From NCBI GenBank assembly GCA_964016885.1, contig OZ024755.1, positions 25,730,001 to 25,794,000 on the forward strand: a stretch of DNA of 64,000 nucleotides, written 5' to 3'. The notes below the pieces were generated by a model. The model was not told the DNA's origin, did no database searches, and saw nothing but the letters and a program-made list of their open reading frames with translations. A program made the translations under genes and the position numbers. Below are positions 28,901-31,900 of the stretch, one piece after another; position 1 is the first letter of the stretch, and every line of letters starts with the position of its first letter. The stretch comes from Eledone cirrhosa. Lineage: Eukaryota.

Positions 28901-31900
28901 GCTTTATGGATGTTATTCAACCATTTTGCTTGGGATCAAGCCTTGGATCTCCTACCGGTTGGTTTTTGCCTGTAAAATCTGTCCAGTGACACTTTCCTAA
29001 GATATTCTGATATGTCCGTAGTAGCAGAACTGTGATCTTTCAATTCCAAGAAGTAACAACTTCCTAACCCCTGGATTATTTTCCAAATGATTTGAAAATC
29101 ATAGGCAGTTTATTAGAAATATAGTAGCAAAAGGATTAAAGACATAGGCAATGTCTTTTGTTAGAAATATGGTAATGAAAGAGTAAAAGACATAAGCAAT
29201 GCCTTTCATTAGAAATATTGTAATGAAAGGGTTAATGATATAGGCAGTGTCTTTTATTAGAAATATGGTAATGATGGGTTAAAGACATAGGTAGTGTCTT
29301 TCTTTAAAAATATGGTAATGAAAGGACTAAAGACATAGACAGTGTTTTTTATTAGAAATATGGTAATGAAAGAGTCAATGACATTGGCAGTGTCTTTAAT
29401 TAGAAATATGGTAATGAAAGAGTCAATGACATTGGCAGTGTCTTTAATTAGAAATATGGTAATGACTGAAACAGTAAAAGAACAGTATCCCAGTGTGGCC
29501 ACAATTGAATGACTGAAAACAGTAAAAGAATGTGTGCTTCAAAATAGCCACAGTCTAATGAAAGAAACCAATAAAATATAATGCCCCAGAATTGCCACAA
29601 TCCAATGGCTTAAACCAATAAAAGAATAAAAGAATTAACATTAAAATTAAGAATGGAAAAGCTATGAGATTTAGAAGAAAATTGCCATGAAATGAGTTTG
29701 TTGGGGGGGGGGGGGGGGGGGATGTTGGTGTTGGTAGTGAGGAAGGTGTTAGTTGTGGTGGTGGCATGGCTGTTGATTGGGCTGGGAGGAAGGGGACTGC
29801 CCCAAGGAGGAGATTAAAGGTAATGAAAGAAGTACAACTGTTTAATATTAAATACCAGTAGAGATGAGATTGTTAAAGGTGAGAAGAGTTGGAGTAGGAA
29901 GGAAGGAGGGGCGGGTTCTATTTTTGATGTGGGATTTACTAAATCCAGTCAATTTATCATAATCTGATGGGTGTTTCCTGTCTATCTCATTCGTCATCAT
30001 CATCATCATTTAATTGAATTAGCTAATCAACCTTGTTATCAACAACTCCACTTACAATCAGTCTCGTTAGAAAATATCCACACATCTCCAGTTCTGCCAG
30101 TATCTCACATAATTTCAGGAGTCTTTGCTTGCTCATGACCATATTATTATTTTTAAATTACTTTAACGAAGTCCTCTCAAGTTCCCCATTTTGTCAGTTA
30201 ACAGCTATTTCCAGCATTTGTTTGGAAATTTTATTTTACCAGGAAGTTATATAATTACAGAACAATTTAAATTATCCATCTCACTCACTTGATTGTGCTT
30301 CCACGGAATCTGTTGTGAATTTTCTGCCCAATTAAACGCGCATCATCCGTCTCAGTTATTTTTATCCTAGTCTTTGTGGCCTAATAATCAGTACAGGACC
30401 CCCATAAAAAAAGCCACATTTCTATGTGTATCTAAAGAGTGAAGTGAGAAATATCAGTAATTAAACATGATGAACTATTACTACCCCCCATACAATTGCC
30501 CCTATCCATATTACCAACAACCAGCTTATTACCAACCACAGGTATATTACCAGCCTGATGCAGGTGAGTTATTGATTATTCTAATCTATGATGAATAATT
30601 CTGTGTGTATCCGGTTTACAATAGGTACACCATATCCCTGTGTATCTGGGTTAGAACAGGTACATTGTATCCCTGTGTGTATTTAGTTTACAATATATAC
30701 ACTGTATCACTGTGTGTATCCACTTTAAAATAGGTCTATTGTATTCCTGTGTGTGTCTAGTTTACAATAGGTACACTGTATCCCTCTGTGTATCTGGTTT
30801 ACAATAGGTATACCATATCCCTGTGTATCTGGGTTAGAATAGGTACACTGCATCCTTGTGTGTATTTAGTTTTCAATATGTACACTGTATCACTGTGTGT
30901 ATCCATTTTAAAATAGGTCTACTGTATTCCTGTGTGTGTCTAGTTTTCAATATGTACACTGTATCCCTGTGTGTATTTAGCTTACAGGTACACTGTTTCC
31001 CTGTTACAATAAATACCCAGTGTGTATCTGGTTTCCAATAAATACTCAGTGTGTGTTTGGTTTACAATAAATACACTCTATCCCTGTGTGTTAAAAGAAG
31101 CAACTGAAATGGTTGGTACCAGGAAAGATATTCAGCTGTAAAACATTGCTATTAAGACCCCACTTCCCACCACCCACATACATGATACTCCACTATTTAG
31201 TCCCAAGATTGATTTCCTTGCAAGATTCACTCTTAGTTCTTTTCATATCAAACCACTTGGAACTGTCCCTGGTTCAATAATACAATGCTGTATAGTTAAA
31301 ACTATTATCCAAGTGCTGGTGACATGATAAAAAGTGCACAGTCCACCATGTAAGGTTATTGTGCTGATGACACGAAGAAACACCCAGTCCACCATGTAAC
31401 ATGGATGGCATTAGGAAGGGTATCTAGCTGTAGAAATAAAGCCAAAATACAGATCCGTATGAGCAAGATGTAGTTACCTGACCTGACTTCTTTCATAACA
31501 TGACAATTGTCACTTCTTTTACCTCTAATTAACCTTTTCTTCCTGCTTTTCTACTTTCTGGAGTGAAGGTGATGGGGGGGGGGGGGGGTCATTTCATTTT
31601 ATATTTTATTGCTACCTGTAACTTTTTCTTTCATCCACCCACTCATTCTTACTTAGTGTGATCATGGCAGTGGAGATGGCCATCCACAAGAATGAACCCT
31701 GTGAGTTAAATTGGCTTATTTCAGTGTGTATCCCTTAACATCCTGTGGGTTAACATTCACAATTCTGTCTGTTAAGACCCTGAGGTAATATCCATATGAG
31801 TTTTTATAAAGGATGTAGAGGACCAGAGGCTGCCGAGAAGAATTCCAACTGGATCTGTTTGAGGAAGAACATAAGTGACCTATACACAAGTCACTGATAT

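What the first reader, a model, noticed from the sequence alone, without database searches (positions are those of the whole stretch)
30467..30563. Second hidden CAP first exon: 32-aa Tyr/Pro/Gln low-complexity peptide
Seen: ATG-initiated [32 protein letters not shown] (11 Y, 7 P, 5 Q; repeated YYQ(Q)P) ending at a perfect CAG|GTGAGT donor in phase 1, compatible with exon 37501. It is too short for the ORF track. Inference: a prion-like or aromatic-sticker module replaces the RLE oligomerisation domain, possibly giving a tissue-specific CAP isoform with an alternative self-assembly or phosphotyrosine docking mode.
Basis: partly seen in the sequence, partly recalled or inferred. Interest (0 to 1): 0.72.

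Follow-up and report, generated by a model that had tools for sequence, protein, structure and literature searches.

The report
Tyrosine-rich alternative start for octopus CAP
Inside an intron of an octopus-type actin-recycling gene (CAP) lies a short stretch that likely acts as an alternative first exon, which would swap the protein's clustering module for a 32-residue tyrosine/proline/glutamine tag; no RNA evidence yet shows that it is used.

Summary
The host is an octopod CAP/Srv2 gene; the RLE module lies upstream at 22411-22981 and would be skipped. Consensus donors occur 3 times in 128 kb of both strands, and the other two are real CAP donors; simulated introns gave this combination in 1 of 600 runs, or 41 of 600 with a looser cut-off. 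The stretch appears single-copy. But no spliced read could be tested, no homologue was found, and 0 of 129 CAP proteins has such a leader. I put a real coding first exon at about 70%. RLE-less CAPs are common (35 of 129), so only the leader is new. 'Prion-like' is weak: 32 residues, 22% proline, no Gly/Ser. Likely product: a dimeric, weaker depolymerase with a docking tag. New variant of a known kind; modest interest.

The parts
30467..30563 (+). Candidate alternative first coding exon (coding part): 32 codons plus 1 base, Y/P/Q-rich leader
30463..30469 (+). AAAC-ATG start context; 31 of 1,397 + strand ATGs in the window have [AC]AA[AC] before them (the invertebrate consensus is recalled)
30561..30569 (+). 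Phase-1 splice donor CAG|GTGAGT, identical to the real donor at 37605
30509..30562 (+). Three diverged 18-nt units encoding [18 protein letters not shown]
30058..30357 (+). Three TCAGTY initiator-like motifs (30058, 30194, 30352): possible promoter, weak, since 2 similar clusters occur on the - strand
30354..30371 (+). Possible splice acceptor (exon would start at 30371); relevant to the UTR-exon or poison-exon rival
22411..22981 (+). Upstream CAP exon: MFCC leader, acidic linker, RLE oligomerisation module; phase-1 donor. Skipped by the candidate isoform
33028..33427 (+). Another candidate first exon in the same intron (MGTCVS...DYAEV, 133 codons, weaker phase-1 donor, score 4.6)
37501..37604 (+). 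First common exon, start of the helical folded domain (Pfam CAP_N); acceptor for all phase-1 donors above
38465..55539 (+). Remaining CAP exons (helical domain, polyproline P1, WH2-like segment, CARP domain), approximate outer limits from tblastn
30601..31074 (+). 37-nt minisatellite starting 37 nt after the donor; inverted relative to the array at 24506-25612

Best explanation
This is likely an alternative first coding exon of an octopod cyclase-associated protein (CAP) gene: a predicted internal promoter would start a transcript here, splice 30563 to 37501, and give a CAP of roughly 470 residues that lacks the RLE oligomerisation module and begins with a 32-residue Tyr/Pro/Gln tag. Shown: the open frame, the donor, the in-frame junction, and that the RLE module is encoded only upstream. 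Inferred from published CAP work: without that module CAP is mostly a dimer held by its CARP domain, recharges actin monomers normally, and is a much weaker pointed-end depolymerase. Inferred, weakest step: the tag is a disordered docking segment for another protein (Pro/Tyr-binding partners of the ALG-2 type, or a kinase/SH2 pair) that places this isoform, in the way other CAP leaders carry predicted lipidation sites. The gene would thus choose between several N-termini that set location and oligomer state.
For: Junction in frame and the only GT/AG register of 8 tried. Consensus donor: 3 in 128 kb, two of them real CAP donors; null 1 of 600 strict, 41 of 600 loose. Start context shared by 31 of 1,397 ATGs. 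Composition is unlike local repeat-derived frames: Y+P+Q is 23 of 32 here against a maximum of 17 in 22,509 stop-free background windows, and 0 of 1,073 Tyr-rich background windows has both >=4 P and >=3 Q (statistic chosen after the fact, windows overlap). Single copy. The same junction is a hot spot for varied leaders in animals: of 129 CAP proteins, 35 lack RLE, 28 start M-x(0-4)-CC and 11 start MG. An Octopus vulgaris CAP is labelled isoform X4 and shares a peptide with 7 further UniProt accessions whose sequences I could not see (PMC10142993 supplement rows). Effect of losing the module: PMC7543520 passages (yeast CAP without it only dimerises; 20-fold drop in pointed-end depolymerisation) and PMC6888645 abstract (activity scales with oligomer state). 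Length estimated from P0006 residues 227-663.
Against: No homologue of the peptide: 0 hits at E<=0.001 among 1.84 billion representatives, no usable Atlas hit and a recognition score of 1315, below the 2300 that most known-family proteins reach, no Pfam family, not in the protein collection by exact match. 0 of 13 cephalopod-like CAP proteins and 0 of 129 overall has a Tyr-rich leader (at most 4 Tyr per 32 residues), though isoform sampling is thin. The strand is G-poor, so stops are rare and the other two + frames are also mostly open. Changes between the repeat units are not clearly biased to silent sites (4 silent, 7 replacing codons over 3 pairs), and synonymous diversity as high is seen in 183 of 1,524 equally low-complexity background windows. 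Promoter signals are weak: no CpG rise, initiator-like clusters also on the - strand, and a short upstream ATG at 30424. No exact PPxY, PxxP or PPYP-x4-YP motif.
Confidence: 0.55

Rival explanations
1. A chance arrangement: slippage-made low-complexity intron DNA that happens to lie between an ATG and a consensus donor, never spliced.
For: No homologue anywhere searched; 41 of 600 simulated introns give a looser version; the window is full of degenerate short repeats; the TAT TAC pair is copied unchanged in all three units, as slippage would give.
Against: Strict null 1 of 600; donor ties the best real donor; rare start context; composition outside the local background.
Confidence: 0.22
2. One reading: the exon is real and the tyrosine-rich tag replaces the RLE coiled coil as a self-assembly module (aromatic stickers), restoring higher-order clustering or forming condensates.
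For: 11 Tyr in 32 residues, 1 charged residue, regular YY spacing; unrelated artificial oligomerisation domains restore CAP activity in proportion to their valency (PMC6888645 abstract).
Against: Only 32 residues, 22% proline, no Gly, Ser or Arg, 7 Q+N; proline disfavours prion-type assembly and PLAAC's usual core is 60 residues (both recalled; PLAAC not run). Short CAPs that begin at the helical domain need no substitute: 30 of 129 have leaders of 10 residues or fewer and no RLE.
Confidence: 0.13
3. The donor is real but closes a cassette exon 30371-30563 spliced into the long transcript, where it shifts the frame and stops translation at once (a poison exon that tunes CAP levels); the Y/P/Q frame is incidental.
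For: A pyrimidine-rich acceptor-like site lies at 30371; 193 nt is not a multiple of 3 and the frame from the upstream exon stops after 4 residues.
Against: Does not explain the good start context or an open frame matching the downstream phase; the three laid contigs show T>A at 30368, inside that acceptor's pyrimidine run. The same acceptor could equally serve a non-coding first exon (donor-like site at 29879), which would leave the best explanation's protein unchanged.
Confidence: 0.07

Closest known systems
CAP/Srv2 family, short RLE-less isoforms (e.g. insect proteins of about 420 aa such as P0091; Drosophila CAPT-RA beside the longer CAPT-RB)
   Same: Begin at or near the helical folded domain without the RLE module; 35 of 129 proteins examined. 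The RA portion of capt was used for rescue lines (bioRxiv 10.1101/2025.09.12.675872, methods passage); that RA lacks RLE is my inference from P0091 and P0122 plus recall.
   Different: 30 of those 35 have leaders of 10 residues or fewer; none has a Tyr/Pro/Gln tag. Some may be truncated models.
Toxoplasma longCAP/shortCAP (PMC6785269, passages)
   Same: One CAP gene makes isoforms differing by a short N-terminal extension (36 residues) that sets location.
   Different: There the choice is between start codons and the tag is palmitoylated; here it would be an alternative exon and an aromatic, proline-rich tag. The MFCC exon at 22411 is the closer counterpart.
ALG-2-binding Pro/Tyr segments (ABM-1 of ALIX, PLSCR3; similar segments in TSG101, annexins A7/A11, Scotin; PMC5037681 passages)
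   Same: Short disordered Pro/Tyr-rich stretches; the peptide has PPY..CPYP, and the review accepts PYP as a weaker substitute and lists TSG101 CPYPPGGPYP.
   Different: No exact PPYP-x4-YP, no YP after the PYP, no glycine; likeness is by composition only.
Prion-like / tyrosine-sticker low-complexity domains (FUS type; recalled)
   Same: Tyr- and Gln-rich, almost uncharged, repetitive.
   Different: Far shorter, proline-rich, lacks Gly/Ser spacers and Arg partners.

Membership tests
CAP/Srv2 (host gene) | Helical folded domain (Pfam CAP_N) | tested here: met
   Exon 37501 hits PF21938 positions 1-26 at E 0.0033, below cut-off as a fragment; exons tile P0006, which hits it at 4.6e-61
CAP/Srv2 (host gene) | Polyproline P1, WH2-like segment and CARP domain | tested here: met
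   Exons 48889-55539 align to P0006 residues 399-663; one exon retrieves CAP proteins at up to 85% identity
CAP/Srv2 (host gene) | RLE oligomerisation module | tested here: met
   PF01213 at residues 162-188 of exon 22411, 18.8 bits against a cut-off of 19; present in the gene, absent from the predicted isoform
Alternative first coding exon | Start codon in good context, open frame, strong donor in the phase of the next exon | tested here: met
Alternative first coding exon | Spliced transcripts across 30563-37501 and mapped 5' ends | not testable with these tools
   No RNA holder listed; the 3 runs laid are contiguous genomic-type contigs
Alternative first coding exon | Conservation in related species | tested here: inconclusive
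   No protein hit; no cephalopod genome or intron sequence was available; a 32-residue biased query has little power
Prion-like domain | Q/N/G/S/Y-rich, proline-poor core of about 60 residues or more (definition recalled) | tested here: not met
   32 residues, 7 Pro, 0 Gly, 0 Ser, 7 Q+N; PLAAC itself not run
Prion-like domain | Self-assembly in vitro or in cells | not testable with these tools
   needs a bench assay
ALG-2-binding motif type 1 | PPYP (or PYP/PXYP) followed by YP | tested here: inconclusive
   PPYNCPYP present, exact motif absent
WW or SH3 ligand | [LP]PxY or PxxP | tested here: not met
   0 matches
Multi-copy genomic repeat | Further copies in the genome | tested here: not met
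   Single contig at single-copy depth in 3 of 3 runs; no second copy in the window; no Rfam match in 22900-37600

The most novel reading that the evidence does not exclude
Cephalopod CAP is a plug-in actin depolymerase: one intron holds a panel of first exons (palmitoylation-type MFCC with RLE, myristoylation-type MG..C without RLE, and this Tyr/Pro/Gln tag), and the Tyr tag is a natural replacement for the coiled-coil oligomerisation module, switching pointed-end depolymerisation on by aromatic clustering and off by tyrosine phosphorylation.
Probability: 0.1. Interest if true: 0.72.

Novelty: new variant of a known kind. Interest (0 to 1): 0.38.

Why it matters
CAP's depolymerising power depends on its oligomer state, so far altered only with engineered constructs (PMC7543520, PMC6888645). 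A natural isoform that drops the coiled coil and carries a different tag would show how animals tune and place actin turnover from one gene, and gives a small, testable construct. The wider pattern found on the way (CC-type leaders in 28 of 129 CAPs, from molluscs and arthropods where named) may matter more than this single exon. If the exon is not spliced, nothing remains.

Tried and rejected
No whole genome is held for this window, so no genome-wide copy search and no relatives' introns. RNA search: no RNA holder listed; this is no evidence either way. The three runs laid on 29760-30600 gave no joints and no loose end at the donor; I did not lay the full 7-kb junction span because it holds long repeats. 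Upstream exon as query for longer proteins: 0 of 2,991 candidates scored. Peptide searches: blank. The peptide was too short for the metagenome locus scan, so that collection was not searched for it directly; a scan with P0006 gave 52 loci, best segments 36-68% identical and none recognisably cephalopod; 10 of 52 covered the start of the helical domain, none with a Tyr-rich leader, and the peptide matched none beyond 4-7 residues. Initiator-like cluster and CpG content rejected as promoter evidence. Silent-change and synonymous-diversity tests uninformative. Rfam blank. Atlas blank for the 33028 frame. Literature: 10 searches listed no paper on cephalopod CAP isoforms or a Tyr-rich CAP leader; I saw listings and abstract starts only for most, and the library lacks most subscription papers. 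The supplement of PMC10142993 was cut when stored and isoform cells were truncated, so other Octopus vulgaris isoform N-termini could not be seen. Earlier scan notes: nothing for this place or sequence; one unrelated CAP note.

Full report
Observation. The sequence is as described. Bases 30467-30562 encode [32 protein letters not shown], base 30563 begins a split codon, and GTGAGT follows; joined to 37501 the frame continues into [15 protein letters not shown], and this was the only one of 8 registers with GT and AG at the ends. Counts are 11 Tyr, 7 Pro, 5 Gln. The last 18 codons are three diverged 18-nt units.

Host gene. An exon at 54344 retrieved 14 CAP proteins among 26 candidates, the best 85% identical (Octopus bimaculoides) and 84% (Argonauta hians), so the window is from an octopod other than these (inference). 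tblastn with four cephalopod-like CAPs tiles the gene from 22411 to about 55539 on the + strand. The exon 22411-22981 starts MFCC, carries the RLE module (Pfam CAP_N-CM, residues 162-188, just under cut-off) and ends in a phase-1 donor; exon 37501 starts the helical folded domain. The candidate lies in the 14.5-kb intron between them, so a transcript starting there would lack RLE.

Is it more than chance? Exact MAG|GTRAGT appears three times on the + strand (30564, 37605, 49073) and never on the - strand; the latter two close real CAP exons. On my recalled weight matrix the site scores 8.9, tying the best of 12 real donors. In 600 Markov-simulated introns an ATG-led frame of 30 or more codons ending at a phase-1 donor arose once at score 8 or more and 41 times at score 6 or more. 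The ATG has an AAAC context found at 31 of 1,397 ATGs. The composition differs from local repeat-derived frames: Y+P+Q reaches at most 17 of 32 in 22,509 stop-free background windows against 23 here, and none of 1,073 Tyr-rich windows has both 4 Pro and 3 Gln. All thresholds were chosen after seeing the site. Against: the strand is G-poor and the other + frames are also largely open; repeat units differ by 4 silent and 7 replacing codons; three upstream TCAGTY motifs are matched by two such clusters on the - strand, and CpG content is not raised.

Not a repeat. Three public runs of one sample hold the stretch. Each gives one contig spanning 29760-30600 at depth 4.7-6.3, against 335-353 on a nearby microsatellite, with one difference at 30368 and no joints. 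They behave as genomic DNA and may be the source of this assembly. There is no second copy in the window. No RNA holder was listed, so splicing is untested.

Relatives. The peptide found nothing among 1.84 billion representatives, in the Atlas, in Pfam or by exact look-up. A search with the helical domain of P0006 gave 367 proteins, of which the best 120 were listed. Of 13 cephalopod-like proteins 12 carry RLE and one (P0004) does not. So varied N-termini at this junction are ordinary in protostome CAPs, while this leader has no counterpart in what I could see. An Octopus vulgaris CAP is labelled isoform X4 and listed with 7 more UniProt accessions (one or more may be of another species), whose sequences were not visible (PMC10142993, supplement rows only). 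A metagenome scan gave 52 CAP loci, none recognisably cephalopod.

How it most likely works. Shown: frame, donor, junction, position downstream of the RLE exon. Inferred at about 70%: it is transcribed and spliced as a first coding exon, giving about 470 residues. Inferred from papers: CAP without the oligomerisation domain dimerises only and loses much of its pointed-end depolymerising activity (PMC7543520, passages), and activity scales with oligomer state (PMC6888645, abstract and outline); the C-terminal recharging half is untouched. Least certain: the tag docks a partner. It resembles Pro/Tyr segments that bind ALG-2 (PMC5037681, passages) without an exact motif, has six YxxP and two YxxQ sites, and no PPxY or PxxP. 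By analogy, a 36-residue extension sets the location of Toxoplasma CAP (PMC6785269, passages). A poison-exon reading through an acceptor at 30371 would stop after four residues and is less likely.

Comparison and novelty. The gene is a plain CAP. The isoform would work like the short RLE-less CAPs seen in insects (P0091; CAPT-RA in bioRxiv 10.1101/2025.09.12.675872, methods passages), plus an unrecorded leader. It fails a prion-like-domain definition on length and proline. Ten literature searches listed no description of such an isoform; the library is incomplete. One earlier scan note concerns a duplicated shortened CAP in an arthropod and was not checked.

Verdict. Observation confirmed; interpretation partly supported. 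Likely a real but unproven alternative first exon; new variant of a known kind; interest 0.38, rising to about 0.7 only if the tag proves to replace the coiled coil as an assembly switch (probability about 0.1).

Noticed in passing
window 22411-22440: The MFCC start is shared with Argonauta (P0006) and Sepia-like proteins (P0016, P0019), and 28 of 129 CAPs begin M-x(0-4)-CC, including snails, a clam, a copepod and flies. It looks like a widespread palmitoylation-type leader; my one search on this listed only the Toxoplasma case.
   Followed up: partly
window 33028-33427: Second candidate first exon: MGTCVS start (predicted myristoylation plus palmitoylation pattern, recalled), 133 codons, ends DYAEV at a weaker phase-1 donor; RLE-less. 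A crustacean CAP (P0063) is also MG-started, RLE-less and has IYARV near the end of its leader. No Pfam or Atlas hit.
   Followed up: partly
window 22434: An acceptor-like site inside the MFCC exon, just before RKSRSKK; other cephalopod proteins diverge at this point (P0002, P0003, P0021, O. vulgaris X4), suggesting further upstream first exons.
   Followed up: no
window 24506-25612 / 30601-31074 and 29109-29465 / 35772-36079: Two pairs of inverted minisatellite arrays (about 80% and up to 91% complementary over 220-300 nt) bracket the candidate exon; they could pair in the long pre-mRNA, looping out the donor or forming editing substrates. Such repeats are common, so this may be incidental.
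   Followed up: partly
window 42122-42160: Degenerate partial copy of the end of exon 41956-42072 (reads [13 protein letters not shown]) just downstream in the intron.
   Followed up: no
window 30368: All three laid contigs read A where the window has T, inside the possible acceptor's pyrimidine run: an allele or an assembly difference.
   Followed up: no
window 51779-52090, 53084-53662, 57123-57464: Open frames inside or after CAP introns that look like fragments of Tc1/mariner transposases (resemblance recalled, not searched).
   Followed up: no
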